Source: Candidatus Buchananbacteria bacterium (GTDB taxonomy: Bacteria > Patescibacteriota > Patescibacteriia > 2-01-FULL-39-33). From it: DNA of 64,000 bases. The notes beneath the pieces were generated by a model, which was not told where the DNA came from, ran no database searches, and worked only from the letters and a program-made list of their open reading frames with translations. A program made the position numbers and the translations under genes. Below are positions 17,878 to 47,187 of the stretch, one piece after another. How positions within the stretch are numbered: the stretch's first letter is position 1; every line of letters starts with the position of its first letter. The stretch covers positions 20,671 through 84,670 of the forward strand of contig CAIOLF010000046.1 in assembly GCA_903859075.1 (NCBI GenBank), read 5' to 3'.

Positions 17878-18651
17878 ATGAAGACTCACGGCAAGAGAAA
17901 TATAGTAGCTATTGGTGGCGGACAAGTATTCGTGCCCTGCAAGCCGCCGGAAACCTTGGCCATTGACGGGTACATCGTCCGCCTGGCCGAGGAGAATTTG
18001 TCGCTAAGCCGGCAACCAAGAAAGCCGCGCCTACTATTTGTCCCAACGGCCAGCGGAGACGACCTTTTGTACTGCAACACCATCTACAATTTGTACGAGT
18101 TGCGTCTCGGCTGCCAGTTCGACCACCTGCGCCTTCTGGCCGAACGCCTGACTGACCAGGAAATCCGCCAGAAAATAAGCTGGGCCGACATTATTTACGT
18201 CGGTGGCGGCAACACCTACCGGATGATGCGAGCCTGGCGACGCCGCGGCGTCGGCCAACTGCTCATCGCTGCCTATAACTCCGGCACGGTGATGTGCGGA
18301 CTTTCCGCCGGAGCGATCTGCTGGTTTGACTCCGGCGTCAGCGACTCGCGCAAGGAGTCCAATCCCACCGATTGGAAACCGATTCTGGTGAAGGGACTGG
18401 GGCTGATACCGGCCGTTTGCTGCCCGCATTATGATTCGGAAGGAGAATGGCGCAAGTCGGCTTGTGAAGATCTGCTGCGGCGCCACCCCTCTCTCCCGGG
18501 CATTGCCTTGGAAGATCTCTGCGCGCTGCAAGCCATCGATGGCAGTCAATACAAAGTGATCTCGCCCGCCGGCAAAAAATGTTACCATTTATCCTGGCAA
18601 GAGGGTCTCTTTGTTCCCCGCAGAATCGCCGAGGAGAAAATCAAATCATAG
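17878..18651 (+). CDS. peptidase S51 family protein (dipeptidase E / cyanophycinase-like)
   Basis: 257 aa; YVGGGNTYRM and GLSAGAI motifs typical of S51 serine peptidases. GC-rich. Confidence 0.7.
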   Translation: MKTHGKRNIVAIGGGQVFVPCKPPETLAIDGYIVRLAEENLSLSRQPRKPRLLFVPTASGDDLLYCNTIYNLYELRLGCQFDHLRLLAERLTDQEIRQKISWADIIYVGGGNTYRMMRAWRRRGVGQLLIAAYNSGTVMCGLSAGAICWFDSGVSDSRKESNPTDWKPILVKGLGLIPAVCCPHYDSEGEWRKSACEDLLRRHPSLPGIALEDLCALQAIDGSQYKVISPAGKKCYHLSWQEGLFVPRRIAEEKIKS

Positions 18652-18658
18652 TAGTATC

Positions 18659-18696
18659 CGCCGTTGCCGCCACTTAGGGCCGCAACGGTTTTTTTA
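18659..18696 (+). terminator. rho-independent terminator
   Basis: ccgttgccgcc-acttaggg-ccgcaacgg followed by a T7 run. Confidence 0.7.
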
Positions 18697-19005
18697 TTGA
18701 TTTTTAACAATATTAGGTATAGTATTTAAACATCATATGGAAAAATTTGATTCGCAAAAACATCTCCAGCTTGCCAGCCATTTGCCTTTTTCTTATTATT
18801 CCCTGCCTTTATACCTGGACTTCTCCGCTTACTTACTGCCCCGGAATAATGAACGAGTGATCGTAACGCAAGACCTTTATTACCCGCATGAATTCCCGGC
18901 TATTTTCTTGCCCCAAAATCCAGAGAATTGGGATAATTTTATTTTTCCTGGGTGGGCTTTGTGATATGCTCAGAACTTTAGAACTGTCTAAAATAGACAA
19001 GGAGC

Positions 19006-20385
19006 TTATTCTATCACTTTAATAATACTTTTGGCTTCAAAATATTCCAATGGCACGATTTTAACGTCGCTTAAGGCCTGCCTTTCCGGCGAATCTTGGG
19101 GTAAACTGTCAATTCTTGCCTCAAGCCATCGCTTTACTTTGTTGGTTTCATTTTTTGGCGCCCGAATCTCTTTTAGTTGTCCGTTTTCTATCGGCTGTTT
19201 TGTCCTTCTTTCCGAAACCAGCCCTGATGTCAGAGTATCCAAATCTTCCCCTGGCAGATCTTTACCTTCATAAATCAAAATCGTAGGAAAGGGGTCGGTC
19301 ATTTCCTGCCGCATTTCTGGCGTTTCATTCTCATAAGTTCTTATTCCATTTTCCAGTTTCGCGATCTCTTGCGACTTTTTGTCAATTTTCCATTGTTCGC
19401 CTCCCTGCTTTAATCTATCTCTCTCTTCATTCAGCGCAACTAACTTTTTTCTTGATTGTTCCGGGTCAAAATAATATTTTCGTTCCTGCAGTCCCTGCAT
19501 TTTTTCAGCCATTAATTCTTCGTCTGAAATTTCCTTGTCACCTTTCATTATTTTTATGGCGGATTCTACTTGGACTCGCTCCTTAGCGCCGAGCTTTGGC
19601 AATTCTGCAAAAACCGTTTTGACAATATCCTCTTCACAGCCGATTCCCATGATGTCTTTTTTATCCAAAGCCAATCTTGACTGCTGTTCATTTTTCCTCG
19701 CATAAAAATAGCTGACGGTTTCCGATTGATCATAGCCGCCGATTACAAAAGATGTCGTATCAATTTCCTCGCCGGTAGCCGCCTGTTCACCGGTGGCGAT
19801 ATTCTTCTTTGATTCCAATGCCCCGTGTTCCAAAATCTTGGCCAAGCCGTAAGAACCGGTGCTATGGTAAATGGGCATATCGGCCAGAGCTTCCTGGGGC
19901 CGGGAATAATGACCCAGCGCTTCTTCAAAAACCTTCGTCTTTGAGCCATCGCTATCCTTTTCCTTGATAAGCTTTCTGGCTTTGGCAATTACCTCTTCCG
20001 CATTCCCTCCCAGCTCAAGATTATTGAACAATGTCAATCTCTTTTTTTCTGCGGCCAATGAATCGAATCTCTCGTTTTCTTTCTGCGCCTGCTCAATAAC
20101 GCTATCTACTAGATTTGCATGGATCATTTCTGTGCTTTCATCGCCAAGCCTTTTACCAAGTCCGCTCTCCAGTTCTGCGAGTTTTGATTGATATTCCATT
20201 TCCCTTTTAACTTGTATCATATCCATTTCTTCCTGGGTGGCAGCTTTGTGATTATATTCAGCTAATTCTTTATTAATTTGTTCAACTCTACTATTCCTTT
20301 TTTCAGTTATAGTTTGCGGAGCCACCTCGGCTTTTGGCTGTTCAATTATTTCCTTTTTATTGGATTGTTGTTCGTGGTCATTCAT
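19006..20385 (-). CDS. hypothetical coiled-coil protein, Glu/Lys-rich
   Basis: 459-aa ORF, AT-rich. Heptad-like charged repeats. No catalytic motif recognised. Confidence 0.55.
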   Translation of the reverse strand: MNDHEQQSNKKEIIEQPKAEVAPQTITEKRNSRVEQINKELAEYNHKAATQEEMDMIQVKREMEYQSKLAELESGLGKRLGDESTEMIHANLVDSVIEQAQKENERFDSLAAEKKRLTLFNNLELGGNAEEVIAKARKLIKEKDSDGSKTKVFEEALGHYSRPQEALADMPIYHSTGSYGLAKILEHGALESKKNIATGEQAATGEEIDTTSFVIGGYDQSETVSYFYARKNEQQSRLALDKKDIMGIGCEEDIVKTVFAELPKLGAKERVQVESAIKIMKGDKEISDEELMAEKMQGLQERKYYFDPEQSRKKLVALNEERDRLKQGGEQWKIDKKSQEIAKLENGIRTYENETPEMRQEMTDPFPTILIYEGKDLPGEDLDTLTSGLVSERRTKQPIENGQLKEIRAPKNETNKVKRWLEARIDSLPQDSPERQALSDVKIVPLEYFEAKSIIKVIE

Positions 20386-20426
20386 ATATCTCTATTTTAC
20401 CATTATATTAATGAATCTCAAACCGC

Positions 20427-20461
20427 TAAAAACAAGACACCTCCCTAATGGAAGGTGTCTT
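20427..20461 (-). terminator. rho-independent terminator downstream of the TrmB gene
   Basis: Minus-strand reading aagacacct(t)cc-attaggg-aggtgtctt followed by GTTTTTAG. Confidence 0.6.
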
Positions 20462-20547
20462 AAATTTGGGTCGCAACCGTGATTTGCTCATACGGATACT
20501 AGCGGATCCAGAGGAGATTGGCTTAATTAAACAGAGATTAAAAAATA

Positions 20548-21348
20548 TTAAACAGTCTTCAGGAATGAATCCGTATACTTAGGTTGCGGTTTTACCGGTT
20601 TGGAAATTTTCCAAATCACCTCAAATTGCTGTTTCATTAAGTTAGTGAAGTCCCTGCTATGCACTACAAAGCCAAAACTTTCCGCCTCGGAAGAAATAAA
20701 AGCGATCTTATCGGAGTACAGCCAATAGCTCATATCCCAATTCATTGGGGACGGTGCGATTCTAAGCTCCCTTAAATGCCCCTTACCAACCCCCAAAAAA
20801 GGATATTCCTTAAGCTTAACCGCTTTATTCGCTGGCCAAATCCCCTTAATTGAGATTTTTTGCTTGATTCTTTTACGATTTAAATCTTCCAAATACTCTC
20901 TTCCCAAGATGTCAACCATATCACTAATCGGCCACATAGTATAGGTTTCTATATTATCATGCCAAAGCATATCTCGCAGTACCTGTCTGATGCCGTCTAT
21001 CCCTGAATAAAATTTAATCTTCGGCTCCAAGGCTGGGCTTGTTTTCAAATTAGACCGCCAATCCTTTATCTTCTTTTTTGCCTTGTTTAGATTATCAATT
21101 TTATCGTCTAATAATCTCTCAAATTCATTTGGCTCATCAATATTAAACATTTTTTTCCCATTTTGTTCCTTTTCGACGACTAAACTATTTTTAATGAGGA
21201 TGCCCAGATTGTCATAAATAGTCGCGCGTGGCAAACCTAAATTCTCCGCCAATTGCCGAGCGGACAAATACCCGGCTTCCGCCAATTTCAAATAGATTCT
21301 ACTGGCAATCTCCGGGATGCTGAGTTCTTTTAAAATCTTATCAATCAT
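20548..21348 (-). CDS. TrmB-family transcriptional regulator
   Basis: 266 aa; N-terminal wHTH LSIPEIASRIYLKLAEAGYLSARQLAENLGLPRATIYDNLGILIKNSLV plus a TrmB-type C-terminal domain. Divergent from the downstream operon. Confidence 0.75.
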   Translation of the reverse strand: MIDKILKELSIPEIASRIYLKLAEAGYLSARQLAENLGLPRATIYDNLGILIKNSLVVEKEQNGKKMFNIDEPNEFERLLDDKIDNLNKAKKKIKDWRSNLKTSPALEPKIKFYSGIDGIRQVLRDMLWHDNIETYTMWPISDMVDILGREYLEDLNRKRIKQKISIKGIWPANKAVKLKEYPFLGVGKGHLRELRIAPSPMNWDMSYWLYSDKIAFISSEAESFGFVVHSRDFTNLMKQQFEVIWKISKPVKPQPKYTDSFLKTV

Positions 21349-21473
21349 ATGACTATATTGATTGTCGCTTGCCGACGGCAGTTTGACACTATTTATTATA
21401 TAGGTTTAAATTAAATAAATCAAATTACGGTATCTGTGCCCGAATATCTTCTAAATTATTAACTAATTGCAAT

Positions 21474-22115
21474 ATGATCGAGAAAATAAAGCACTCAAAG
21501 AAAGTAATTAACGAAGCAATGAATCGGCATCCCAAAATCGCCTTAGCCTGTTCATTTGGCAAGGATAGTATGGTTTTATTGCATTTGGCGCTTCAGCTTA
21601 AGCCGGATATGCCTATTTTTACAATTATGACTCCATTCAAGCCCCGGGAAACCTTTGAGTTTAAGGATCTGGTAACTAAACTTTGGAATTTAAATATTAA
21701 AGAATACATCCAAAAAGATAATATTGGAGCTGAAAAAGAAAAATTATGGCTGAATAATCCAGAAAAATGTTGCGAGTATTTCAAGGTAGAACCAACAATC
21801 AAGGCAATTGACGGTCTGGATGCTTGGATTACCGGCCTGAGGAATACGGAGGGCGAAACTAGAAAAAATTTTAAGGAAGTTGAGCATAAAAAGATAATTA
21901 AAATTAATCCTATTCTTGATTGGACGGAGTTAGATATTTGGCGCTACATCGCTTTTAATCAAATCCCCGTGCATCCCTGGTATAAAAATGGGTACAGAAG
22001 TTTAGGCTGCGAGCCCTGCACTGCTATTATTGCCGATGATCAATCAGAAAGATCCGGCAGATGGCAAAGGACTAATAAATGCGGAGGAGAATGCGGAATA
22101 CATACAAAAATTTAA
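21474..22115 (+). CDS. APS/PAPS reductase family protein (CysH-like, with Fe-S cysteine pattern)
   Basis: 213 aa; SFGKDS PP-loop, CC..KVEP, SLGCEPCT, C-terminal ECGIH catalytic motif. Confidence 0.8.
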   Translation: MIEKIKHSKKVINEAMNRHPKIALACSFGKDSMVLLHLALQLKPDMPIFTIMTPFKPRETFEFKDLVTKLWNLNIKEYIQKDNIGAEKEKLWLNNPEKCCEYFKVEPTIKAIDGLDAWITGLRNTEGETRKNFKEVEHKKIIKINPILDWTELDIWRYIAFNQIPVHPWYKNGYRSLGCEPCTAIIADDQSERSGRWQRTNKCGGECGIHTKI

Positions 22116-23063
22116 TTGCCTGTCGGCACATCTTATATGAAGGACTTGCTTCATTATATTGGCAATACGCCATTAATAAAATTAACCGGGTTCACAACCC
22201 AAAACGATGCCACAATATATGTGAAATTAGAACACTTAAATCCTGCCGGTACGCATAAAGTACGAGCATATTTGAACATGATTGAAAAAATAGAACGGGA
22301 TAAAAAAATCACCAAGAATACGATTTTTGTAGAAGCATCAAGCGGTAATTCAGCAATTGCCGGGGCGTTTATTTGCGCCGTAAAAGGATATAAATTCAAA
22401 GCTTTTATCCCAGATTATGTTTCCAAAGAAAGAGGCAAGATAGTAAAAGCTTACGGAGCGGAGGTTGTGATAAGTAAAATGGAATCTCCATCGCGCCATA
22501 AAGAACAAGCTTTGGAATTCATAAAGCAAGATCCTCAAAATAGAATTTTTATTAATCAATATAATAATTCGGCCAATCCTGAAAGTTTTAAAATTTTAGG
22601 AAAGGAAATTTATAAAAATTGCAATGAAAAAAAAATTATTCCGGACTACTTTTTGTCTGGCGCCGGAACTTATGGACTAATCACGGGGGTGGCTATAAGC
22701 CTTAAAAAATACTATCCAAACATTCAAACTATTCTTATAGAATCACCAACTGCTCCCTATATCCATGCCAAAAGGAATAACTATACTTTTTTGTATCAAA
22801 TACCTGAACTAACCGGGATGGGAGGCGCGTCACTTCCCAAAATTGCCGATGAAAAATTATATGACATTGCGGATGTGGCCGATGAAAAAGATGCCGTAGC
22901 AATGACTAGAAAGTTGGCCAAAGTCGGTTTATTTGTAGGAAAAACATCGGGGGCTAACATCGATATGACTATTAAATATGCTAGAAAACTCGGAAAAGAA
23001 AAAATTATTATCACTAACACGTTTGATACCGGAGAAAGATATTTAAGCGAAAATTTATGGTGA
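22116..23063 (+). CDS. PLP-dependent fold-type II enzyme of the cysteine synthase (CysK/CysM/cysteate synthase) family
   Basis: GNTPLIKL, lysine in KLEHLNPAGTHKVRAY, SSGNSAIAGAF, glycine loop SGAGTYGLITG. The true start is probably ATG at 22137 (MKDLLHYIGNTPL). Confidence 0.75.
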   Translation: MPVGTSYMKDLLHYIGNTPLIKLTGFTTQNDATIYVKLEHLNPAGTHKVRAYLNMIEKIERDKKITKNTIFVEASSGNSAIAGAFICAVKGYKFKAFIPDYVSKERGKIVKAYGAEVVISKMESPSRHKEQALEFIKQDPQNRIFINQYNNSANPESFKILGKEIYKNCNEKKIIPDYFLSGAGTYGLITGVAISLKKYYPNIQTILIESPTAPYIHAKRNNYTFLYQIPELTGMGGASLPKIADEKLYDIADVADEKDAVAMTRKLAKVGLFVGKTSGANIDMTIKYARKLGKEKIIITNTFDTGERYLSENLW

Positions 23064-24145
23064 ATAAAATCCCAAAAATATTCCGAGGAACGCCGTTGCA
23101 TTTGTCAAAATCCGGCCGACTGAATGATTTCGCATATTTGATGATCAACTTGCCATTTTTGTGTAATTACAAATGCAAAAAATGTTTTAATTTGAAAAAT
23201 AATAACTTTTATATTCAAGATAATCCAATAACTACGGATAAAATATTCAAATTAATAAAAGAAGCGAGAGACATGAATGGGAAGGCGGTTATTTTGGCGG
23301 GAGAGGGGGAACCCAGTTTACATAAAAGTATTAAAAAAATTGTCAAAAAGATCGATTCTTCGGGCATGATGACTATTATTTATAGCAATGGAAGTACTCT
23401 AACGGAAGAACTGATTGGCTTTTATGCCGCACACAATGTTTCGTTGGTTATCAGCTTTGATTCATTCTTACCCGAACTCTACCTTAAGTTAACCGGCAAC
23501 AATGATAAAAACATTTTTTTGCAGGTTCTAAAAAATATCAAACAGGCAAGGAAAATTTACGGCAAACTTATTCGGCAGGAAAATGGCTGCCGAGTTGTTA
23601 GATTGGCCTTTAATGCCACTGTTAACGGCTTAAATAAAGAGGAAATGAAAAAAATTAAAGAATTCTGCGGCGATGACATATATTTCATTTGTAATCCATT
23701 GGCTAAATTAGGGAATGCCGTGGGTAATTGGGATGAATTATCATTGGGTAATGACAATTATAAAGAGATTGAGCAGATTATAAGGGAGCTATCAGAGAGT
23801 ACTGGTCCGCTTACCCTGGGCAGCAATGGCCTTTGCGGATACTCAAGTAATGGCATTGCCATTAGCCCCGCCGGAAATTATATGACTTGCGCCTACACTT
23901 CAGCGACGGACGGATTATTGGGAAACGTCTTTAATAAAACATTGTCAGAAAGCTATGCCTACAAGAAGAACCAGGAGCAAAAATTTTATAACACTTATGG
24001 TAATTGTCCGTGCTTGGTTAGATCGCCTAAATTTAAAACATATGTGGAAACATTAGAAAAACAAATTAAAATGAATAATATCTCAATTTATAAAAATTCT
24101 TTAGTTCAACTCCCTTCCTTGCCCAACAAAAAATACCCCAATTAA
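23057..24145 (+). CDS. radical SAM protein with C-terminal Cys-rich SPASM/twitch-like region
   Basis: 362 aa; CNYKCKKC (CX3CX2C), GEGEPSL, C-terminal ...GLCGY...MTCAYT...GNCPCLV. Overlaps the previous gene by 7 nt, so an operon. Confidence 0.75.
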   Translation: MVNKIPKIFRGTPLHLSKSGRLNDFAYLMINLPFLCNYKCKKCFNLKNNNFYIQDNPITTDKIFKLIKEARDMNGKAVILAGEGEPSLHKSIKKIVKKIDSSGMMTIIYSNGSTLTEELIGFYAAHNVSLVISFDSFLPELYLKLTGNNDKNIFLQVLKNIKQARKIYGKLIRQENGCRVVRLAFNATVNGLNKEEMKKIKEFCGDDIYFICNPLAKLGNAVGNWDELSLGNDNYKEIEQIIRELSESTGPLTLGSNGLCGYSSNGIAISPAGNYMTCAYTSATDGLLGNVFNKTLSESYAYKKNQEQKFYNTYGNCPCLVRSPKFKTYVETLEKQIKMNNISIYKNSLVQLPSLPNKKYPN

Positions 24146-24212
24146 GGGATATTTTTTGTTTTTGTACTCATTTATCCTAACAATTAATCTAGGTATAATA
24201 AGTACCAAAATG

Positions 24213-24287
24213 GGTGAGTGACCGGGGTTGAACCGGCAACCGCTCGGACCACAACCGAGTGCTCTAACCAATTGAGCTACACTCACC
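24213..24287 (-). tRNA. tRNA-His (anticodon GTG), with encoded G-1; CCA not encoded
   Basis: Sense sequence GGTGAGTGTAGCTCAATTGGTTAGAGCACTCGGTTGTGGTCCGAGCGGTTGCCGGTTCAACCCCGGTCACTCACC folded by hand: 8-bp acceptor including G-1:C73, anticodon loop TTGTGGT. Confidence 0.85.
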
Positions 24288-24291
24288 ATAA

Positions 24292-24363
24292 TGCTCCCAC
24301 CAGGACTCGAACCTGGATTTTAGGTTCCGGAAACCCATGTTCTATCCCTTGAACTATAGGAGC
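24292..24363 (-). tRNA. tRNA-Arg (anticodon CCG)
   Basis: Sense GCTCCTATAGTTCAAGGGATAGAACATGGGTTTCCGGAACCTAAAATCCAGGTTCGAGTCCTGGTGGGAGCA: cloverleaf folded by hand, T-loop TTCGAGT, anticodon loop TTCCGGA. Confidence 0.8.
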
Positions 24364-24407
24364 TGAATTGTTTTATCAAAATAGATTAGTTCAATTCCTA
24401 TCTTGAC

Positions 24408-24482
24408 TGGTGTCCCCGCTAGGAGTCGAACCTAGATCCAGAGCTTAGAAGGCTCTTGTTCTATCCGTTGAACTACGGGGAC
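24408..24482 (-). tRNA. tRNA-Arg (anticodon TCT), CCA encoded
   Basis: Sense GTCCCCGTAGTTCAACGGATAGAACAAGAGCCTTCTAAGCTCTGGATCTAGGTTCGACTCCTAGCGGGGACACCA; anticodon loop CTTCTAA. Confidence 0.85.
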
Positions 24483-24530
24483 AAAAAACTTTTAATACAA
24501 CTAAAATAATAACAAAAAAACCCGAAAAAG

Positions 24531-25820
24531 TCAAATACTTTGCCCCTTTTGCCCAGTATTTTTAATAAATGACAAATTCTTATAAATCCCGCCGAAGAGC
24601 TTGATAAAGATTATTAAAACCGCAAAACATAAAATTGCCCAGGCTAAATTAAGCGGAGCCAAAAAACTGTAAAAACTAATAAAGGCAATCAGCAGCCAAG
24701 CTATCTTCTTTTGCCATAAAAACATAAAGCTGAGCGGAATGATAAAGTGCCAAGGATAGGACAGGCACAACAGCAATAATGGCACCAGCAAAGAGGCCAG
24801 AGCGCCGGCTCCGATGTCAGAGATTTTCCCTTTCCAAAACAATCTATAGATAAACAAATACAGCGCTAAAAAAATGATCAAAGAAACCATGACTCCCTCG
24901 GCCGAGCTAAGCCAAGGGAAAAAATCATAAATCAGCAATTTGCCCCGGCCCATTCCTCCGCCGCTGCCGCCGATAAAAGCGGCCCTGATCATCGGCCAGA
25001 ATTTAAATCCTAAAATCAGCTTAAGCAATAAAAGAGAAACGCCACCGGTAATAACAAAATAAATAAATTTTCTGACAATATTCTTTTTGCCGCACCAAAA
25101 AGGCAGCAGGAACCAGCCGTAGATTTTTACCAGTCCCGCCAAAGCGCCGAGCCAAACGCCGAATAATTCTTTTTTCTGGACATACCAAGCAGAAAGCAAT
25201 AAAGCGGCAATAAATATATCCGCGTGCGGCGTCGCCAGATTATTAAAGAGCAGCACCGGACAAAGCAAAAACAGATAAGCCAGCTGTTTTTTACCCGTTA
25301 ATCTGTAAATCAAATAAGCCGACCAAAGGTAGCCAGCCAGATTGAATATTTTAAGTCCTGCCAATCCCAGCCATAATTTATCTAGGGATATAAAATTAAT
25401 CACCACCATCGCCAGCTGCCACAACGGCCCGTAGGGACTGTAAATTTTGGTCCACCAGATATGATAAAAATACGATGAATACTGATCGGCCGGCAGATTA
25501 ATTGGCAGTACCTCATAGGGTGAAGCGTGGTAAGAAGCGATCATCTTTCCGTCAAACAGATAGCGGAAAATATCATAGGAAGTTGTCGGCACGGAAAAAA
25601 TAGCCAAGGCCATAACCGCTAGCGGCAGCAACCATAGCCAACGGGAAATCTTCTGTCTTAGAAACAGAAAAAATAAAACCGCAAAAATAAAACCGCTAAT
25701 AATATACCAAATAGAAGTGAACTCATACGTCGGCTTCTGAACGTATGAATTGAAAAAAATAATGAAATTAACAACCAGATAAGCAAAGCAAAAAAATAAA
25801 CTGCTGATTTTTTTTATCAT
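24531..25820 (-). CDS. polytopic membrane protein, GT-C-type glycosyltransferase-like (DUF2029/GT87-like)
   Basis: 429 aa, more than 10 TM helices. A periplasmic-loop motif SYDIFRYLFDGKMIASYHASPY resembles mannosyltransferase-like GT-C proteins. Confidence 0.45.
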   Translation of the reverse strand: MIKKISSLFFCFAYLVVNFIIFFNSYVQKPTYEFTSIWYIISGFIFAVLFFLFLRQKISRWLWLLPLAVMALAIFSVPTTSYDIFRYLFDGKMIASYHASPYEVLPINLPADQYSSYFYHIWWTKIYSPYGPLWQLAMVVINFISLDKLWLGLAGLKIFNLAGYLWSAYLIYRLTGKKQLAYLFLLCPVLLFNNLATPHADIFIAALLLSAWYVQKKELFGVWLGALAGLVKIYGWFLLPFWCGKKNIVRKFIYFVITGGVSLLLLKLILGFKFWPMIRAAFIGGSGGGMGRGKLLIYDFFPWLSSAEGVMVSLIIFLALYLFIYRLFWKGKISDIGAGALASLLVPLLLLCLSYPWHFIIPLSFMFLWQKKIAWLLIAFISFYSFLAPLNLAWAILCFAVLIIFIKLFGGIYKNLSFIKNTGQKGQSI

Positions 25821-29419: not shown

Positions 29420-29851
29420 TTATCCGGCCGTGCCCCCGGCAGCTGTCTTGCCAATCTGAGCGATTACGAAAGAGGTAATGGCATAAGCCATAAAAATAAT
29501 CACAATGGCGACAACGCCCTGAATGATGGTCTTTCTGGCTTTGGTAATTTTAGTTTCATCGCCTTGAGCCATCATCCACATGAATCCGGCGTAAATAACG
29601 ATGAGCACGAACACAACGCCGAGCAGTCCCAGTAAGACCCCAACCACATTGCCGATGGTCTTCGGCAGATTGGCGCCCTCACCGCCTAATTGCTGAAGTC
29701 CAGTGGCCGTAAGATTTCCTTCTATATTGGTCACAATATCGGCCGAGGCCGGATGTACCAGGCCTAGCCCCAAAACCGGCACGGCCAGGAACATAACCAC
29801 CATCAGAAAAGAAAATAGATGTTTTCTCTTTTCCTTTAATAATTTTTTCAT
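29420..29851 (-). CDS. TrbC/VirB2-like (T4SS-type) pilin family small membrane protein, paralog 5 of 5
   Basis: 143 aa; N-terminal signal/TM, conserved C-terminal block IYAGFMWMMAQGDETKITKARKTIIQGVVAIVIIFMAYAITSFV shared with neighbours. Confidence 0.6.
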   Translation of the reverse strand: MKKLLKEKRKHLFSFLMVVMFLAVPVLGLGLVHPASADIVTNIEGNLTATGLQQLGGEGANLPKTIGNVVGVLLGLLGVVFVLIVIYAGFMWMMAQGDETKITKARKTIIQGVVAIVIIFMAYAITSFVIAQIGKTAAGGTAG

Positions 29852-29953
29852 AGCTTTTTAGTTAATTTTATATTAATTATTTATTTTTACTTTCAATCAC
29901 TTAGGCGGACTGCCGCCTAAGCCATGAAAACAATCTATCTAAACTAGAAGATT

Positions 29954-30364
29954 CTATCTGAACTTGAAAATATTGACCACAAACGACGTAATACCATAAG
30001 AAAGCATGACAATAATAAACCCAGTGAGTGCCGTAATGATTATATTGCGAGCTGATTTTATTTTTGTCTCGTCGCCGCGAGCCAGCATCCACATTACTCC
30101 GGCATAAATCGTCAAGACCAGAAAAAGAACTCCGATACCGGCCAGCACTGTTTTAATCACATTGCCGACAAAACTCGGCAGACTGGTCGATCTATCCAGA
30201 CCGGTGCCGGCGACCGCTCTCCTCAGTCCGGAAATCGGATTTACCGTGTCCGCGGCATAAACGGCGGTAAAACAAAAAATCCCTACAAGCAGAAAAAACA
30301 GCAAGGTGCTCAAAAAACGATAATTGATTTTATTTTTCCAAAGCATTTTTCTGGGTTTAATCAA
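29954..30364 (-). CDS. TrbC/VirB2-like pilin family small membrane protein, paralog 4
   Basis: 136 aa; IYAGVMWMLARGDETKIKSARNIIITALTGFIIVMLSYGITSFV. Confidence 0.6.
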   Translation of the reverse strand: MIKPRKMLWKNKINYRFLSTLLFFLLVGIFCFTAVYAADTVNPISGLRRAVAGTGLDRSTSLPSFVGNVIKTVLAGIGVLFLVLTIYAGVMWMLARGDETKIKSARNIIITALTGFIIVMLSYGITSFVVNIFKFR

Positions 30365-30403
30365 GGGGGGCGTAAAAACGCCCCCTTTGTTAAATTATAT
30401 TTA

Positions 30404-43252: not shown

Positions 43253-43327
43253 GTCCCCGTAGTTCAACGGATAGAACAAGAGCCTTCTAAGCTCTGGATC
43301 TAGGTTCGACTCCTAGCGGGGACACCA
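43253..43327 (+). tRNA. mirror copy: tRNA-Arg (TCT)
   Basis: Reverse complement of 24408-24482. Confidence 0.85.
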
Positions 43328-43371
43328 GTCAAGATAGGAATTGAACTAATCTATTTTGATAAAACAATTCA

Positions 43372-43443
43372 GCTCCTATAGTTCAAGGGATAGAACATGG
43401 GTTTCCGGAACCTAAAATCCAGGTTCGAGTCCTGGTGGGAGCA
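43372..43443 (+). tRNA. mirror copy: tRNA-Arg (CCG)
   Basis: Reverse complement of 24292-24363. Confidence 0.8.
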
Positions 43444-43447
43444 TTAT

Positions 43448-43522
43448 GGTGAGTGTAGCTCAATTGGTTAGAGCACTCGGTTGTGGTCCGAGCGGTTGCC
43501 GGTTCAACCCCGGTCACTCACC
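43448..43522 (+). tRNA. mirror copy: tRNA-His (GTG)
   Basis: Reverse complement of 24213-24287. Confidence 0.85.
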
Positions 43523-43589
43523 CATTTTGGTACTTATTATACCTAGATTAATTGTTAGGATAAATGAGTACAAAAACAAAAAATATCCC

Positions 43590-44678
43590 TTAATTGGGGT
43601 ATTTTTTGTTGGGCAAGGAAGGGAGTTGAACTAAAGAATTTTTATAAATTGAGATATTATTCATTTTAATTTGTTTTTCTAATGTTTCCACATATGTTTT
43701 AAATTTAGGCGATCTAACCAAGCACGGACAATTACCATAAGTGTTATAAAATTTTTGCTCCTGGTTCTTCTTGTAGGCATAGCTTTCTGACAATGTTTTA
43801 TTAAAGACGTTTCCCAATAATCCGTCCGTCGCTGAAGTGTAGGCGCAAGTCATATAATTTCCGGCGGGGCTAATGGCAATGCCATTACTTGAGTATCCGC
43901 AAAGGCCATTGCTGCCCAGGGTAAGCGGACCAGTACTCTCTGATAGCTCCCTTATAATCTGCTCAATCTCTTTATAATTGTCATTACCCAATGATAATTC
44001 ATCCCAATTACCCACGGCATTCCCTAATTTAGCCAATGGATTACAAATGAAATATATGTCATCGCCGCAGAATTCTTTAATTTTTTTCATTTCCTCTTTA
44101 TTTAAGCCGTTAACAGTGGCATTAAAGGCCAATCTAACAACTCGGCAGCCATTTTCCTGCCGAATAAGTTTGCCGTAAATTTTCCTTGCCTGTTTGATAT
44201 TTTTTAGAACCTGCAAAAAAATGTTTTTATCATTGTTGCCGGTTAACTTAAGGTAGAGTTCGGGTAAGAATGAATCAAAGCTGATAACCAACGAAACATT
44301 GTGTGCGGCATAAAAGCCAATCAGTTCTTCCGTTAGAGTACTTCCATTGCTATAAATAATAGTCATCATGCCCGAAGAATCGATCTTTTTGACAATTTTT
44401 TTAATACTTTTATGTAAACTGGGTTCCCCCTCTCCCGCCAAAATAACCGCCTTCCCATTCATGTCTCTCGCTTCTTTTATTAATTTGAATATTTTATCCG
44501 TAGTTATTGGATTATCTTGAATATAAAAGTTATTATTTTTCAAATTAAAACATTTTTTGCATTTGTAATTACACAAAAATGGCAAGTTGATCATCAAATA
44601 TGCGAAATCATTCAGTCGGCCGGATTTTGACAAATGCAACGGCGTTCCTCGGAATATTTTTGGGATTTTATTCACCAT
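43590..44678 (-). CDS. mirror copy of 23057-24145: radical SAM/SPASM protein
   Basis: Identical 362-aa protein. Confidence 0.75.
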   Translation of the reverse strand: MVNKIPKIFRGTPLHLSKSGRLNDFAYLMINLPFLCNYKCKKCFNLKNNNFYIQDNPITTDKIFKLIKEARDMNGKAVILAGEGEPSLHKSIKKIVKKIDSSGMMTIIYSNGSTLTEELIGFYAAHNVSLVISFDSFLPELYLKLTGNNDKNIFLQVLKNIKQARKIYGKLIRQENGCRVVRLAFNATVNGLNKEEMKKIKEFCGDDIYFICNPLAKLGNAVGNWDELSLGNDNYKEIEQIIRELSESTGPLTLGSNGLCGYSSNGIAISPAGNYMTCAYTSATDGLLGNVFNKTLSESYAYKKNQEQKFYNTYGNCPCLVRSPKFKTYVETLEKQIKMNNISIYKNSLVQLPSLPNKKYPN

Positions 44679-45619
44679 AAATTTTCGCTTAAATATCTTT
44701 CTCCGGTATCAAACGTGTTAGTGATAATAATTTTTTCTTTTCCGAGTTTTCTAGCATATTTAATAGTCATATCGATGTTAGCCCCCGATGTTTTTCCTAC
44801 AAATAAACCGACTTTGGCCAACTTTCTAGTCATTGCTACGGCATCTTTTTCATCGGCCACATCCGCAATGTCATATAATTTTTCATCGGCAATTTTGGGA
44901 AGTGACGCGCCTCCCATCCCGGTTAGTTCAGGTATTTGATACAAAAAAGTATAGTTATTCCTTTTGGCATGGATATAGGGAGCAGTTGGTGATTCTATAA
45001 GAATAGTTTGAATGTTTGGATAGTATTTTTTAAGGCTTATAGCCACCCCCGTGATTAGTCCATAAGTTCCGGCGCCAGACAAAAAGTAGTCCGGAATAAT
45101 TTTTTTTTCATTGCAATTTTTATAAATTTCCTTTCCTAAAATTTTAAAACTTTCAGGATTGGCCGAATTATTATATTGATTAATAAAAATTCTATTTTGA
45201 GGATCTTGCTTTATGAATTCCAAAGCTTGTTCTTTATGGCGCGATGGAGATTCCATTTTACTTATCACAACCTCCGCTCCGTAAGCTTTTACTATCTTGC
45301 CTCTTTCTTTGGAAACATAATCTGGGATAAAAGCTTTGAATTTATATCCTTTTACGGCGCAAATAAACGCCCCGGCAATTGCTGAATTACCGCTTGATGC
45401 TTCTACAAAAATCGTATTCTTGGTGATTTTTTTATCCCGTTCTATTTTTTCAATCATGTTCAAATATGCTCGTACTTTATGCGTACCGGCAGGATTTAAG
45501 TGTTCTAATTTCACATATATTGTGGCATCGTTTTGGGTTGTGAACCCGGTTAATTTTATTAATGGCGTATTGCCAATATAATGAAGCAAGTCCTTCATAT
45601 AAGATGTGCCGACAGGCAA
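44672..45619 (-). CDS. mirror copy of 22116-23063: CysK-family PLP enzyme
   Basis: Identical 315-aa protein. Confidence 0.75.
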   Translation of the reverse strand: MPVGTSYMKDLLHYIGNTPLIKLTGFTTQNDATIYVKLEHLNPAGTHKVRAYLNMIEKIERDKKITKNTIFVEASSGNSAIAGAFICAVKGYKFKAFIPDYVSKERGKIVKAYGAEVVISKMESPSRHKEQALEFIKQDPQNRIFINQYNNSANPESFKILGKEIYKNCNEKKIIPDYFLSGAGTYGLITGVAISLKKYYPNIQTILIESPTAPYIHAKRNNYTFLYQIPELTGMGGASLPKIADEKLYDIADVADEKDAVAMTRKLAKVGLFVGKTSGANIDMTIKYARKLGKEKIIITNTFDTGERYLSENLW

Positions 45620-46261
45620 TTAAATTTTTGTATGTATTCCGCATTCTCCTCCGCATTTATTAGTCCTTTGCCATCTGCCGGATCTTTCTGATTGATCATC
45701 GGCAATAATAGCAGTGCAGGGCTCGCAGCCTAAACTTCTGTACCCATTTTTATACCAGGGATGCACGGGGATTTGATTAAAAGCGATGTAGCGCCAAATA
45801 TCTAACTCCGTCCAATCAAGAATAGGATTAATTTTAATTATCTTTTTATGCTCAACTTCCTTAAAATTTTTTCTAGTTTCGCCCTCCGTATTCCTCAGGC
45901 CGGTAATCCAAGCATCCAGACCGTCAATTGCCTTGATTGTTGGTTCTACCTTGAAATACTCGCAACATTTTTCTGGATTATTCAGCCATAATTTTTCTTT
46001 TTCAGCTCCAATATTATCTTTTTGGATGTATTCTTTAATATTTAAATTCCAAAGTTTAGTTACCAGATCCTTAAACTCAAAGGTTTCCCGGGGCTTGAAT
46101 GGAGTCATAATTGTAAAAATAGGCATATCCGGCTTAAGCTGAAGCGCCAAATGCAATAAAACCATACTATCCTTGCCAAATGAACAGGCTAAGGCGATTT
46201 TGGGATGCCGATTCATTGCTTCGTTAATTACTTTCTTTGAGTGCTTTATTTTCTCGATCAT
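45620..46261 (-). CDS. mirror copy of 21474-22115: APS/PAPS reductase-like protein
   Basis: Identical 213-aa protein. Confidence 0.8.
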   Translation of the reverse strand: MIEKIKHSKKVINEAMNRHPKIALACSFGKDSMVLLHLALQLKPDMPIFTIMTPFKPRETFEFKDLVTKLWNLNIKEYIQKDNIGAEKEKLWLNNPEKCCEYFKVEPTIKAIDGLDAWITGLRNTEGETRKNFKEVEHKKIIKINPILDWTELDIWRYIAFNQIPVHPWYKNGYRSLGCEPCTAIIADDQSERSGRWQRTNKCGGECGIHTKI

Positions 46262-46386
46262 ATTGCAATTAGTTAATAATTTAGAAGATATTCGGGCACA
46301 GATACCGTAATTTGATTTATTTAATTTAAACCTATATAATAAATAGTGTCAAACTGCCGTCGGCAAGCGACAATCAATATAGTCAT

Positions 46387-47187
46387 ATGATTGATAAGAT
46401 TTTAAAAGAACTCAGCATCCCGGAGATTGCCAGTAGAATCTATTTGAAATTGGCGGAAGCCGGGTATTTGTCCGCTCGGCAATTGGCGGAGAATTTAGGT
46501 TTGCCACGCGCGACTATTTATGACAATCTGGGCATCCTCATTAAAAATAGTTTAGTCGTCGAAAAGGAACAAAATGGGAAAAAAATGTTTAATATTGATG
46601 AGCCAAATGAATTTGAGAGATTATTAGACGATAAAATTGATAATCTAAACAAGGCAAAAAAGAAGATAAAGGATTGGCGGTCTAATTTGAAAACAAGCCC
46701 AGCCTTGGAGCCGAAGATTAAATTTTATTCAGGGATAGACGGCATCAGACAGGTACTGCGAGATATGCTTTGGCATGATAATATAGAAACCTATACTATG
46801 TGGCCGATTAGTGATATGGTTGACATCTTGGGAAGAGAGTATTTGGAAGATTTAAATCGTAAAAGAATCAAGCAAAAAATCTCAATTAAGGGGATTTGGC
46901 CAGCGAATAAAGCGGTTAAGCTTAAGGAATATCCTTTTTTGGGGGTTGGTAAGGGGCATTTAAGGGAGCTTAGAATCGCACCGTCCCCAATGAATTGGGA
47001 TATGAGCTATTGGCTGTACTCCGATAAGATCGCTTTTATTTCTTCCGAGGCGGAAAGTTTTGGCTTTGTAGTGCATAGCAGGGACTTCACTAACTTAATG
47101 AAACAGCAATTTGAGGTGATTTGGAAAATTTCCAAACCGGTAAAACCGCAACCTAAGTATACGGATTCATTCCTGAAGACTGTTTAA
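46387..47187 (+). CDS. mirror copy of 20548-21348: TrmB-family regulator
   Basis: Identical 266-aa protein. Confidence 0.75.
   Translation: MIDKILKELSIPEIASRIYLKLAEAGYLSARQLAENLGLPRATIYDNLGILIKNSLVVEKEQNGKKMFNIDEPNEFERLLDDKIDNLNKAKKKIKDWRSNLKTSPALEPKIKFYSGIDGIRQVLRDMLWHDNIETYTMWPISDMVDILGREYLEDLNRKRIKQKISIKGIWPANKAVKLKEYPFLGVGKGHLRELRIAPSPMNWDMSYWLYSDKIAFISSEAESFGFVVHSRDFTNLMKQQFEVIWKISKPVKPQPKYTDSFLKTV

What the first reader, a model, noticed from the sequence alone, without database searches (positions are those of the whole stretch)
20548..24482. AT-rich, tRNA-flanked operon with a TrmB regulator: APS-reductase-like, CysK/cysteate-synthase-like and radical SAM/SPASM genes; candidate novel sulfur-metabolite or modification pathway
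The block 21474-24145 is about 30-35% GC against about 48% for the surrounding housekeeping genes. Its genes are tightly packed (1 bp gap, then a 7-nt overlap), which suggests translational coupling, and it is regulated divergently by a TrmB-family regulator. It ends at three tRNA genes (His, Arg, Arg), the classic insertion context for genomic islands. The first gene has every hallmark of a true CysH-type APS/PAPS reductase (PP-loop SFGKDS, CC...CxxC Fe-S cysteines, C-terminal ECGIH) and so would make sulfite. No ATP sulfurylase, APS kinase or sulfite reductase is present. The second gene is a fold-type II PLP enzyme of the CysK family, and members of this family (cysteate synthase, CysM) are known to use sulfite or thiosulfate directly. 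The third gene is a radical SAM enzyme with a Cys-rich SPASM/twitch-like C-terminus, as found in anSME-type or peptide-maturase-type enzymes. One coherent reading is a short route from an activated sulfate to a sulfonate or thio-amino acid (cysteate-like) that is further modified by the rSAM enzyme. Another is a sulfur-insertion or maturation system for an unidentified substrate. Neither combination is a textbook operon, and the host otherwise looks biosynthetically minimal.
Basis: inference. Interest (0 to 1): 0.7.

Follow-up and report, generated by a model that had tools for sequence, protein, structure and literature searches.

The report
Sulfur operon built around unknown radical-SAM enzyme
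A small regulated gene cluster in a likely candidate-phyla-radiation bacterium joins a sulfite-making enzyme and an unusual cysteine-synthase-like enzyme to a radical-SAM enzyme of unknown function, which elsewhere sits beside sulfonate-type importers; this suggests, without proving, an oxygen-free route for acquiring sulfur.

Summary
The genes are real. They are a TrmB-like regulator (20548-21348, minus strand) facing CysH (21474-22115), a CysK-like PLP enzyme (22137-23063) and a radical-SAM enzyme (23057-24145), followed by tRNA-His/Arg/Arg.

- The operon genes are 36-38% GC, not 30-35%.
- The "1 bp gap" depends on a TTG start. Homologues support ATG 22137, which gives a 21-nt gap.
- No SPASM domain is detected. 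Only four conserved C-terminal cysteines are present (twitch-like).
- There is no integrase and no att-like repeat.
- The window is a perfect 30-kb foldback, so everything is mirrored at 43253-47187.

Comparative genomics changes the picture. The conserved core is the radical-SAM enzyme. In 10 distinct CPR/DPANN loci it sits next to a divergent TrmB-like gene. In 9 loci of larger genomes it follows an SsuA-like ABC transporter and an unknown protein. The CysH/CysK-like/rSAM trio recurs in four lineages in two gene orders, with conserved overlapping stop/start codons and a conserved operator. One relative carries the transporter as well. The CysK-like enzyme forms a tiny separate clade, about 37% identical to ordinary CysK. 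I found no published characterisation of the radical-SAM family.

Best reading: an anaerobic sulfur-acquisition module, with the radical-SAM enzyme most likely releasing sulfite from sulfonates. That specific step is inferred, not shown.

The parts
20433..20462 (-). Terminator-like hairpin (13-bp stem plus T run), 86 nt downstream of the TrmB-like stop codon
   Evidence: Consensus scan. A pattern match only.
20548..21348 (-). TrmB-like regulator, 266 aa. It has an N-terminal winged helix-turn-helix, a coiled coil and a C-terminal domain of about 130 aa with no family match
   Evidence: PF01978 33.3 bits (cutoff 25.6) on residues 6-69. Homologues 21-66% identical lie divergent to the rSAM gene, or to its operon, in nine further distinct loci.
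21363..21380 (.). Candidate operator, TGTCG-N8-CGRCA (TGTCGCTTGCCGACGGCA), ending 2 nt before the -35 box
   Evidence: The block is conserved in the window, L045 and L012 intergenic regions. The pattern is found only there among 47 loci. It occurs twice in the window, the site and its foldback mirror, against 0.09 expected.
21383..21412 (+). Promoter-like site for the operon (TTGACA, 18 nt, TAAATT)
   Evidence: 10 of 12 positions matched. TTGAC is conserved in the three aligned intergenic regions. A consensus match only.
21474..22115 (+). CysH-type thioredoxin-dependent APS/PAPS reductase, 213 aa, with Fe-S cysteines (CC, CxxC) and the catalytic ECGIH motif
   Evidence: NF002537 197.5 bits (cutoff 154) and PF01507 1.4e-44. 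The best PDB match is the Fe-S-type reductase 7lhr (5.8e-34), followed by the P. aeruginosa APS reductase 2goy. The motifs are conserved in L045 and L001.
22137..23063 (+). Divergent CysK-family PLP enzyme, 308 aa (the ORF opens at TTG 22116; the homologue-supported start is ATG 22137)
   Evidence: PF00291 7e-53. cysK scores 223.6 bits against a cutoff of 350.95. Only four close relatives exist among 5.8e9 proteins, then identity falls to <=41%. The clade is a separate NJ branch. Clade-specific changes are GTHKVR for GS(V/I)K(D/T)R, GTYGL for GTGGT, and a 6-residue insert.
23057..24145 (+). Radical-SAM enzyme of an uncharacterised family, 362 aa. It has CxxxCxxC at C36/C40/C43 and conserved C212, C260, C278 and C319. 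The C-terminal ~25 aa are not conserved
24212..24482 (-). tRNA-His(GTG), tRNA-Arg(CCG) and tRNA-Arg(TCT). These are neighbours, not part of the operon
   Evidence: The same trio lies 3.2 kb downstream of the rSAM gene in L001.
43253..47187 (.). Exact reverse-complement mirror of the whole feature, created by the foldback
   Evidence: Inverted repeat 3735-33867 / 33868-64000, 100% complementary with 0 nt between the arms. The tRNAs are mirrored at 43253-43523 and the operator at 46355-46372.

Best explanation
This is a sulfur-acquisition operon, the small-genome counterpart of a sulfate-starvation cys/ssu cluster. It is controlled by a dedicated TrmB-like repressor or activator that binds a palindrome next to the -35 box.

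Proposed roles:
- CysH reduces APS (or PAPS) to sulfite.
- The radical-SAM enzyme is the constant element of the module. It is proposed to be the oxygen-independent counterpart of SsuD/TauD. It would use a 5'-deoxyadenosyl radical to break the C-S bond of an imported sulfonate and release sulfite.
- The divergent CysK-like PLP enzyme is translationally coupled to the radical-SAM enzyme. It would fix the released inorganic sulfur onto an activated serine.

Shown:
- the gene identities at family level
- the conserved linkage and the coupling of the genes
- the conserved operator
- the association of the rSAM family with CysH, with Cys/Met PLP enzymes and with SsuA-like ABC transporters

Inferred:
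- the substrate and reaction of the radical-SAM enzyme
- the nucleophile used by the CysK-like enzyme (sulfide, sulfite or thiosulfate)
- the ligand of the regulator
- the source of APS

I put about 0.7 on the general claim that this is a sulfur-acquisition module centred on the rSAM enzyme. I put about 0.3 on the specific desulfonation step.
For: 1. The CysH assignment passes a curated equivalog cutoff and has all catalytic motifs.

2. The rSAM family is repeatedly linked to sulfur genes in unrelated lineages:
- the window has CysH-CysK-like-rSAM
- L045 has CysK-like-rSAM-CysH-Cys_Met_Meta_PP
- L051/L052 have CysK-like-rSAM-CysH
- L001 has CysH-rSAM
- L012 has CysK-like-rSAM
- L021/L049 have Cys_Met_Meta_PP-rSAM
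- L007 has a distant PALP enzyme followed by rSAM

3. In Planctomycetes, Aminicenantes, a Bacteroidetes MAG and further unclassified contigs, the rSAM gene ends an operon of ABC permease, ATPase, substrate-binding protein and an unknown protein. This holds for L002, L004, L005, L022, L024, L026, L029 and L048, and partly for L019.

4. For seven such binding proteins, from six of these loci and L052, the best NCBIfam hit is SsuA_fam (94-120 bits, E 1e-26 to 1e-35), followed by the taurine-binding protein. No nitrate, bicarbonate or cyanate model is hit.

5. L052 joins both contexts. An SsuA-like ABC transporter and two TrmB-like genes lie directly upstream of CysK-like-rSAM-CysH.

6. Textbook precedent: in ssuEADCB and tauABCD, the enzyme encoded with the sulfonate importer is the desulfonating enzyme. 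[quoted passage not shown] An rSAM protein is required for anaerobic isethionate assimilation in Rhodobacter (PMC11423573).

7. Overlapping stop/start codons are conserved: 7 nt between CysK-like and rSAM in four loci, and 8 nt between rSAM and CysH in L045 and L051.

8. The operator is conserved across loci whose regulators are 31-66% identical.
Against: - No biochemical evidence exists for any member of the rSAM family, and no paper was found on it.
- The SsuA-like binding proteins all score below the family cutoff of 163.5 bits, so their substrate is not established.
- The window itself holds no transporter, sulfurylase, CysE or sulfite reductase. The pathway is therefore incomplete as seen, and the rest of the genome could not be examined.
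- If both CysH and the rSAM enzyme make sulfite, a sulfite-to-sulfide step is still missing. The alternative is that the CysK-like enzyme uses sulfite directly.
- Most of the closest structural neighbours are peptide or protein maturases.
- In five loci the rSAM gene has only the TrmB-like neighbour. In six others it has neither partner, though two of those contigs begin at or near the rSAM gene (L006, L008, L011/L023, L018, L028, L050).
- The CysK-like enzyme is closer to CysK than to any known sulfite-using enzyme.
Confidence: 0.4

Rival explanations
1. This is a biosynthetic pathway to a sulfonated or thio-amino acid. CysH makes sulfite, the CysK-like enzyme adds it to O-phospho- or O-acetylserine to give cysteate (or S-sulfocysteine), and the rSAM enzyme then modifies that amino acid, for example by decarboxylation, epimerisation or C-C/C-S chemistry.
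For: - The CysK-like clade is distinct and has altered active-site loops.
- It occurs mostly with this rSAM family: 3 of the 4 close relatives with usable contigs.
- The CysK-like stop and rSAM start codons overlap.
- A CysK-family cysteate synthase (CapA) has a curated NCBIfam model.
Against: - In other loci the partner upstream of the rSAM gene is a Cys/Met gamma-family PLP enzyme, an unrelated unknown protein, or nothing. That is hard to reconcile with a single amino-acid substrate made by the CysK-like enzyme.
- The CapA model scores 132 bits against a cutoff of 600, well below the CysK score.
- The link to sulfonate-type importers suggests uptake rather than synthesis of sulfonates.
Confidence: 0.2
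2. The rSAM enzyme supplies the missing reductive step. It converts sulfite (from CysH or from sulfonates) into sulfide or a persulfide that the adjacent CysK-like or Cys/Met gamma-family PLP enzyme captures as cysteine or homocysteine. This would replace siroheme sulfite reductase in minimal genomes.
For: - Pathway logic: every neighbour has a textbook role around sulfite or sulfide, and the only textbook step with no candidate is sulfite reduction.
- Both beta- and gamma-replacement PLP enzymes sit directly upstream of the rSAM gene. That fits capture of one small nucleophile.
- Stand-alone regulator-plus-rSAM pairs would make sense as inducible sulfite detoxification.
Against: - No radical-SAM enzyme is known to carry out a six-electron reduction of sulfite (my own knowledge).
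- The SAM-binding motifs are strictly conserved, which argues for ordinary 5'-deoxyadenosyl radical chemistry.
- In textbook ssu and tau operons, the enzyme encoded with the importer is the desulfonating enzyme, not a sulfite reductase.
Confidence: 0.1
3. The rSAM enzyme is a protein or peptide maturase of the anSME or RiPP kind. It would modify the product of the neighbouring gene (the CysK-like enzyme, the Cys/Met PLP enzyme, the unknown 338-460-aa proteins, or the TrmB-like protein).
For: - The gene immediately upstream varies between loci, but its stop codon overlaps the rSAM start codon wherever this was checked.
- The unknown partner family ends in a conserved CPC motif.
Against: - No RiPP-recognition domain, SPASM domain or precursor ORF is present.
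- The TrmB-like family has no conserved cysteine or other obvious target residue.
- Five loci have no upstream partner gene.
- anSME model: 29.4 bits against a cutoff of 349.
Confidence: 0.1
4. This is ordinary cysteine biosynthesis (CysH plus CysK), with an unrelated rSAM gene adjacent by chance, on a horizontally acquired AT-rich island inserted at tRNA genes.
For: - The three genes have the lowest GC in the window.
- The rSAM family is scattered across CPR, DPANN, Planctomycetes, Aminicenantes and Bacteroidota, which implies horizontal transfer.
- In L048 the module lies between defence genes and an integrase.
Against: - The linkage recurs in two gene orders with conserved overlapping stop/start codons.
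- The CysK-like enzyme is not an ordinary CysK.
- The window has no integrase and no att repeats.
- The tRNA trio is syntenic in L001.
Confidence: 0.05
5. This is an antiviral, viperin-like nucleotide-modifying system, or a cyanide/nitrile-handling cluster of the Nit1C kind (rSAM plus nitrilase, with a beta-cyanoalanine-synthase-like CysK homologue).
For: - PADLOC pVip models hit the rSAM core (E 1e-18) and BrxP hits CysH (2e-13).
- A CN_hydrolase gene follows the rSAM gene in L004 and L022.
- Papers on cyanide assimilation in Pseudomonas pseudoalcaligenes mention both 'radical SAM' and 'cysteine synthase'. That a Nit1C cluster pairs a nitrilase with an rSAM gene is my own recollection.
Against: - The pVip NCBIfam model scores 59.9 bits against a cutoff of 180, and only over the common rSAM core.
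- There is no phage homologue.
- CysH passes the true CysH equivalog cutoff, so the BrxP hit only reflects the shared fold.
- CN_hydrolase is present only in two closely related loci.
Confidence: 0.03

Closest known systems
ssuEADCB / tauABCD sulfate-starvation operons (aerobic sulfonate assimilation)
   Same: - In nine loci an SsuA-like ABC importer is encoded with the candidate desulfonating enzyme. One relative of the window's operon (L052) carries the importer next to it.
- The module is linked to cysteine-synthesis genes and has a dedicated regulator.
   Different: - The oxygen-dependent enzymes (SsuD with SsuE, or TauD) are replaced by a radical-SAM enzyme.
- The binding proteins score below the SsuA family cutoff.
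- The window itself has no transporter.
- The regulator is TrmB-like rather than a LysR-type protein such as CysB or Cbl.
Anaerobic sulfonate C-S cleavage systems: IslAB (a glycyl-radical enzyme and its activase) and IsrBHDK (a nitrogenase-like enzyme plus the rSAM protein IsrB)
   Same: - Both are oxygen-independent and use radical or rSAM chemistry.
- IslA releases sulfite, and the genetics indicate that IsrBHDK does too.
- The genes lie near sulfonate ABC transporters (PMC6386719; PMC11423573).
   Different: - No glycyl-radical enzyme or NifHDK-like genes lie nearby in any locus examined.
- The authors describe IsrB as BciD-like.
- Here the rSAM enzyme would itself be the lyase.
Bacterial assimilatory sulfate reduction (CysH, CysIJ/Sir, CysK)
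   Same: A true Fe-S-type CysH and a CysK-family enzyme lie in one operon.
   Different: - No sulfurylase, kinase, sulfite reductase or CysE lies within 34 kb.
- The CysK-like enzyme fails all CysK and CysM equivalog cutoffs and has an altered PLP-phosphate loop.
- An rSAM gene overlaps the CysK-like stop codon by 7 nt.
Twitch and SPASM radical-SAM enzymes (SkfB, SuiB, anSME, MoaA, viperin, BlsE)
   Different: - No curated family model approaches its cutoff.
- There is no RiPP-recognition domain.
- Only four conserved C-terminal cysteines are present.
- A conserved N-terminal GTPxHLSxxGxL motif is specific to this family.
CapA cysteate synthase, CysM, SbnA and other CysK-family beta-replacement enzymes with non-sulfide nucleophiles
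   Same: They share the fold-type II PLP scaffold, the Schiff-base lysine, the (S/T)SGN(S/T) carboxylate loop and the conserved glutamine.
   Different: - Scores are far below each model's cutoff.
- The clade has its own signature (GTHKVR, GTYGL and a 6-residue insert).
- Its nucleophile is unknown.

Membership tests
CysH-type thioredoxin-dependent APS/PAPS reductase | PAPS_reduct (adenine nucleotide alpha-hydrolase) fold, scoring above a curated equivalog cutoff | tested here: met
   PF01507 E 1.4e-44. NF002537 197.5 bits against a cutoff of 154. TIGR00434 cysH scores 163.5 against 165.1, just under its cutoff.
CysH-type thioredoxin-dependent APS/PAPS reductase | C-terminal catalytic cysteine in an ECG(L/I)H motif | tested here: met
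   ECGIH at residues 206-210. It aligns to ECGLH of 7lhr and 2goy and is conserved in L045 and L001.
CysH-type thioredoxin-dependent APS/PAPS reductase | Fe-S cluster cysteines (CC...CxxC) that mark the APS-preferring bacterial subgroup | tested here: met
   C99, C100, C179 and C182 are present and aligned to the Fe-S-type structures. The TIGR02055 APS_reductase model scores 152.5 against a cutoff of 235.3, so subgroup membership by score is not met. The preference for APS or PAPS was not testable.
CysK/CysM O-acetylserine sulfhydrylase | Fold-type II PLP enzyme with the Schiff-base lysine, the (T/S)SGN(T/S) substrate loop and the conserved glutamine | tested here: met
   PF00291 7e-53. K41, S69-G70-N71 and Q141 are invariant or nearly invariant in the alignment with ordinary CysKs.
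CysK/CysM O-acetylserine sulfhydrylase | Score above the curated CysK, CysM or CysKM cutoffs, and grouping with ordinary enzymes | tested here: not met
   cysKM 226.7 against 344.15. cysK 223.6 against 350.95. cysM 185.4 against 394.2. Identity to ordinary CysK is 37% on average and 40% at most, whereas those enzymes are 61% identical to one another. The clade is a separate NJ branch.
CysK/CysM O-acetylserine sulfhydrylase | Canonical GTGGT PLP-phosphate loop and S(V/I)KDR lysine motif | tested here: not met
   GTYGL (GTFGL or GTHGV in relatives) and THKVR replace them across the clade.
CapA-type cysteate synthase | Score above the NF053679 cutoff | tested here: not met
   132.3 bits against a cutoff of 600. 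Use of sulfite as nucleophile is not testable with these tools.
Radical SAM superfamily | CxxxCxxC cluster motif and the rSAM core fold | tested here: met
   [not shown]
SPASM-domain radical SAM enzymes (anSME, PqqE, sactipeptide maturases) | C-terminal seven-cysteine SPASM motif that binds two auxiliary clusters | tested here: not met
   No SPASM Pfam hit at E<=0.01. Only C212, C260, C278 and C319 are conserved. TIGR03942 anSME scores 29.4 against 349.45 and PqqE 30.6 against 381. One auxiliary cluster (twitch-like) is plausible but inferred.
Prokaryotic viperin (pVip) | Score above the NF038283 cutoff over the full length | tested here: not met
   59.9 bits against a cutoff of 180, over residues 36-196 only. 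The PADLOC pVip hit (1e-18) covers the same core.
TrmB family transcription regulators | N-terminal TrmB-type winged helix-turn-helix | tested here: met
   PF01978 33.3 bits against 25.6, residues 6-69.
TrmB family transcription regulators | C-terminal sugar-binding effector domain of TrmB proper | tested here: not met
   No Pfam or NCBIfam match covers residues ~100-266. The TrmB equivalog models score 14-25 bits against cutoffs of 500-650. The fold of this domain was not predicted.
tRNA-targeted genomic island | Integrase and flanking direct repeats derived from the tRNA | tested here: not met
   No integrase lies among the neighbouring ORFs. No tRNA-derived direct repeat lies within 18600-24700. 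The compositional deviation is present.

The most novel reading that the evidence does not exclude
The radical-SAM family is a previously unrecognised, siroheme-independent and oxygen-independent enzyme of sulfur assimilation. It would either release sulfite from sulfonates without a glycyl-radical or nitrogenase-like partner, or convert sulfite or sulfonate sulfur into a form that the coupled CysK-like or Cys/Met PLP enzymes fix directly. This would let CPR bacteria and DPANN archaea with minimal genomes make cysteine or homocysteine from oxidised sulfur.
Probability: 0.3. Interest if true: 0.8.

Novelty: new variant of a known kind. Interest (0 to 1): 0.6.

Why it matters
Anaerobic assimilation of sulfonates and of oxidised sulfur in general is poorly understood. 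Only glycyl-radical lyases and one nitrogenase-like system are known to break the sulfonate C-S bond without oxygen. CPR bacteria and DPANN archaea are usually described as unable to assimilate sulfur.

This module is compact, mobile and regulated, and it carries an uncharacterised radical-SAM enzyme. That gives a concrete, testable candidate for such a route. It also supplies a regulator-operator pair and a distinct CysK clade whose specificity can be measured. If the radical-SAM enzyme proves to be a sulfonate lyase or a sulfur-mobilising enzyme, it would add a new enzyme class to the anoxic sulfur cycle and would revise the metabolic picture of organisms with minimal genomes.

Tried and rejected
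- **Source contig.** The look-up of the window's own rSAM protein and of its 100% match P0001 found nothing on record. The rest of the host genome could therefore not be checked for sat, cysC, sir or cysE.
- **Phage origin.** tblastn of the rSAM protein against 50,697 phage records gave no match.
- **Defence system.** PADLOC gave only core-fold hits (pVip, BrxP) and nothing for the partner proteins.
- **Precursor peptide.** Only 21-22-aa ORFs lie wholly inside the two spacers. One overlaps the operator, and the longer ORFs run into CysH or the tRNA genes.
- **Riboswitch or leader.** Rfam found only the three tRNAs and two sub-threshold chance hits.
- **Island integration.** No att-like repeats were found.
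- **IsrB analogy.** The paper was read.
- **Family scans of the unknown partners.** Pfam, NCBIfam and PDB sequence searches of the unknown 338-aa and 424-aa proteins found nothing.
- **AlphaFold-database fold search.** It was not available.
- **Literature.** Five searches found no description of this rSAM family or gene combination.

Full report
**What is in the window**

ORF listing, tRNA search and family scans confirm the anatomy.
- A TrmB-like gene lies at 20548-21348 on the minus strand. A 125-nt spacer separates it from the plus-strand operon.
- The operon is CysH (21474-22115), a CysK-family PLP enzyme and a radical-SAM (rSAM) enzyme (23057-24145).
- The CysK-like ORF opens at TTG 22116. 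Its homologues start MK(N/D)LL, which matches ATG 22137.
- tRNA-His, tRNA-Arg(CCG) and tRNA-Arg(TCT) follow on the minus strand at 24212-24482.
- The CysK-like stop codon and the rSAM start codon overlap by 7 nt.
- The three operon genes have the lowest GC (35.8-38.0%) and GC3 of 33 ORFs in the unique sequence, whose mean is 47 +/- 6%.
- No riboswitch and no plausible small precursor ORF lies in the spacers.
- Nothing in the remaining 34 kb of unique sequence encodes a sulfurylase, APS kinase, sulfite reductase or serine acetyltransferase.

The window is a perfect foldback. Positions 3735-33867 and 33868-64000 are 100% reverse-complementary with no spacer. Only about 33.9 kb is unique, and the whole feature recurs at 43253-47187. 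A palindrome of this kind is most simply an assembly or amplification chimera. It does not affect the reading of the operon.

**The individual proteins**

*CysH.* This is a genuine member of its family.
- It exceeds the curated NF002537 cutoff (197.5 bits against 154).
- It aligns best to the Fe-S-type reductase structure 7lhr (5.8e-34) and next to the P. aeruginosa APS reductase 2goy.
- It keeps the CC, CxxC and ECGIH motifs.
- In a library of 1.84 billion representatives its nearest relative is 65% identical.

*The CysK-like enzyme.* This is not an ordinary O-acetylserine sulfhydrylase.
- It fails every CysK, CysM, SbnA, CBS and CapA cutoff.
- It has only four close relatives among 5.8 billion proteins. 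Identity then drops to <=41%.
- In an NJ tree it forms a separate branch, together with an archaeal relative.
- It keeps the Schiff-base lysine, the SSGNS carboxylate loop and the conserved glutamine.
- It replaces S(V/I)KDR by THKVR and the GTGGT phosphate loop by GTYGL, and it has a 6-residue insert.

*The rSAM enzyme.* It belongs to a compact and well-conserved family.
- 90 clusters match at E<=1e-3. The 87 best (E<=1e-48) are 42-100% identical to the query.
- No curated model comes near its cutoff.
- CxxxCxxC is invariant. Only C212, C260, C278 and C319 are conserved in the C-terminal half. No SPASM domain is detected, so a single twitch-like auxiliary cluster is the most that can be inferred.

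**Comparative genomics**

This is the decisive evidence. Loci were fetched from species-representative genomes, from metagenomes and by exact-protein look-up. They were annotated with BLAST and with family scans. Four patterns emerge.

1. *The rSAM gene's most constant neighbour is a divergently transcribed TrmB-like gene.*
   - This holds for the window, L003/L014, L007, L012, L020, L021/L049, L025, L027, L045 and L051/L052. It also holds for the more distant L032 and L036.
   - In five of these loci no other gene lies between the two.

2. *The trio CysH, CysK-like and rSAM recurs in related CPR-type loci, but in a different order.*
   - L045 has CysK-like-rSAM-CysH-Cys/Met-PLP, and L051/L052 have CysK-like-rSAM-CysH.
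   - L001 (Candidatus Buchananbacteria) has CysH directly upstream of the rSAM gene, at a contig end.
   - L012 has CysK-like-rSAM-HD.
   - The 7-nt CysK-like/rSAM overlap is kept in L012, L045 and L051. The rSAM and CysH genes overlap by 8 nt in L045 and L051.

3. *The gene upstream of the rSAM gene can also be something else.*
   - It is a Cys/Met gamma-family PLP enzyme in L021/L049 and a very divergent PALP enzyme in L007.
   - It is an unknown 338-aa protein in L003/L014.

4. *In organisms with larger genomes the rSAM gene closes a transporter operon.*
   - The organisms are Planctomycetes, Aminicenantes, a Bacteroidetes MAG and further unclassified contigs, one of them 3.75 Mb long.
   - The operon is ABC permease, ATPase, substrate-binding protein and an unknown 360-460-aa protein, then rSAM. 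It occurs in L002, L004, L005, L022, L024, L026, L029 and L048, and partly in L019.
   - For seven such binding proteins, six from these loci and one from L052, the best NCBIfam hit is the aliphatic-sulfonate SsuA family (94-120 bits, below the cutoff of 163.5). The taurine-binding protein comes next. No nitrate, bicarbonate or cyanate model is hit.
   - L052 unites the two contexts. An SsuA-like transporter and two TrmB-like genes lie directly upstream of CysK-like-rSAM-CysH.

**Regulation**

The intergenic regions of the window, L045 and L012 share a conserved block, TGTCG-N8-CGRCA, immediately followed by TTGAC.
- The pattern occurs only in these loci among the 47 loci then held.
- In the window it occurs only at 21363-21380 and at its foldback mirror, against 0.09 expected by chance.
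- It ends 2 nt before a promoter-like -35 hexamer at 21383-21388.
- This supports control of the operon by the TrmB-like protein. The ligand is unknown. The C-terminal domain matches no family, and the protein fails the TrmB equivalog models.

**Is it an island at tRNA genes?**

- The composition is deviant, and the rSAM family is patchily distributed across distant phyla. Horizontal transfer of the module is therefore likely.
- In L048 the module lies between defence genes and an integrase.
- In the window, however, there is no integrase and no tRNA-derived direct repeat.
- The related L001 contig has the same tRNA trio 3.2 kb downstream of its rSAM gene, with three other genes in between.
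- The tRNA neighbourhood is therefore shared synteny within this lineage, not evidence of insertion.

**Mechanism**

Every identifiable neighbour of the rSAM family handles sulfur at the sulfite, sulfide or sulfonate level.
- CysH makes sulfite.
- CysK-family and Cys/Met gamma-family PLP enzymes fix small sulfur nucleophiles.
- SsuA-like transporters import sulfonates.

In the textbook ssu and tau operons the enzyme encoded with the importer is the desulfonating enzyme. Radical chemistry is the known oxygen-free way to break a sulfonate C-S bond with release of sulfite, as in the glycyl-radical enzyme IslA. An rSAM protein is required in the Rhodobacter IsrBHDK system (PMC6386719, PMC8473560, PMC11423573).

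I therefore read the operon as a sulfur-acquisition module. In it the rSAM enzyme is the oxygen-independent C-S lyase, CysH is a parallel source of sulfite from APS, and the CysK-like enzyme fixes the sulfur. I put about 0.7 on the general claim and about 0.3 on the specific desulfonation step.

The weak points are these:
- No sulfite-to-sulfide step is visible.
- The binding proteins score below their family threshold.
- The structural neighbours are mostly maturases.
- The window has no transporter.
- The rest of the host genome could not be examined.

The evidence excludes none of them, and each is scored in the rival explanations.

**A lead that stays open**

**Novelty**

Five full-text searches found no description of this rSAM family or of this gene combination. 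The parts belong to known superfamilies and the logic resembles known sulfur-starvation operons. The central enzyme is uncharacterised, however, and the CysK-like clade is distinct. I class the feature as a new variant of a known kind, with moderate to high interest. It offers a directly testable candidate for anaerobic sulfur assimilation in organisms with minimal genomes.

Noticed in passing
window 3735-33867 and 33868-64000: The two arms form a perfect 30,133-nt inverted repeat with no spacer. The contig folds back on itself, so only about 33.9 kb is unique. This is probably an assembly or amplification chimera. Every feature right of 33868 is a mirror (mirror coordinate = 67735 - x).
   Followed up: partly
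[not shown]
   Followed up: partly
L048 (3.75-Mb contig), 1-11822: Here the ABC-unknown-rSAM module lies between GAPS4 defence genes and NA37 upstream, and a SIR2_2 gene and a phage-type integrase downstream. This looks like a mobile or defence island. Two small ORFs (40 and 52 aa) follow the rSAM gene.
   Followed up: no
L009:6957-11822 and L010:3037-8008: Uncultured Gammaproteobacteria carry four adjacent genes that group, by BLAST single linkage, with the rSAM family, separated by one unrelated gene. The first two are 29-33% identical to the window's rSAM enzyme. This is a different and unexplored context.
   Followed up: no
L046:4809-6954 and L047: In an archaeal contig (its neighbours are TBP, MCM and eIF-5/eIF-2B (PF01873)), a longer TrmB-like gene (370 aa) lies divergent to the nearest outgroup of the CysK-like clade (41% identity). 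No rSAM gene lies beside it. The regulator and the CysK-like enzyme can therefore also pair on their own.
   Followed up: partly
L014:4255-6111 (also L003 and L015): Next to the TrmB-like gene of an Aenigmatarchaeota locus lies a 618-aa fusion of an amino-acid permease with a SAM-dependent methyltransferase domain. A convergent metallo-beta-lactamase-fold gene follows the rSAM gene; it also matches the anti-Pycsar Apyc1 Pfam family (PF23023).
   Followed up: no
window 19006-20385 (minus strand): A 459-aa, highly charged (Glu/Lys-rich) protein with no family match lies directly upstream of the TrmB-like gene. A strong hairpin terminator at 20433-20462 separates the two genes.
   Followed up: no
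window 9339-11330: A 663-aa ORF combines a polyprenyl-synthetase match (residues 331-557) with a weak, sub-threshold N-terminal match to nucleoside 2-deoxyribosyltransferase. The architecture is unusual if it is real.
   Followed up: no
window 1-33867: Gene GC content varies widely, from 36% to 57%. The highest values are in the S51 peptidase gene at 17878-18651 and in several ORFs with no family match. Some of the high-GC ORFs may be spurious frames, or the contig may be a mosaic.
   Followed up: no
window 29420-31779: A run of five small genes on the minus strand each begins with a hydrophobic, signal-like N-terminus. One matches a T4SS/TrbC-type pilin (PF18895). A solute-binding protein gene follows at 31793-33211.
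   Followed up: no
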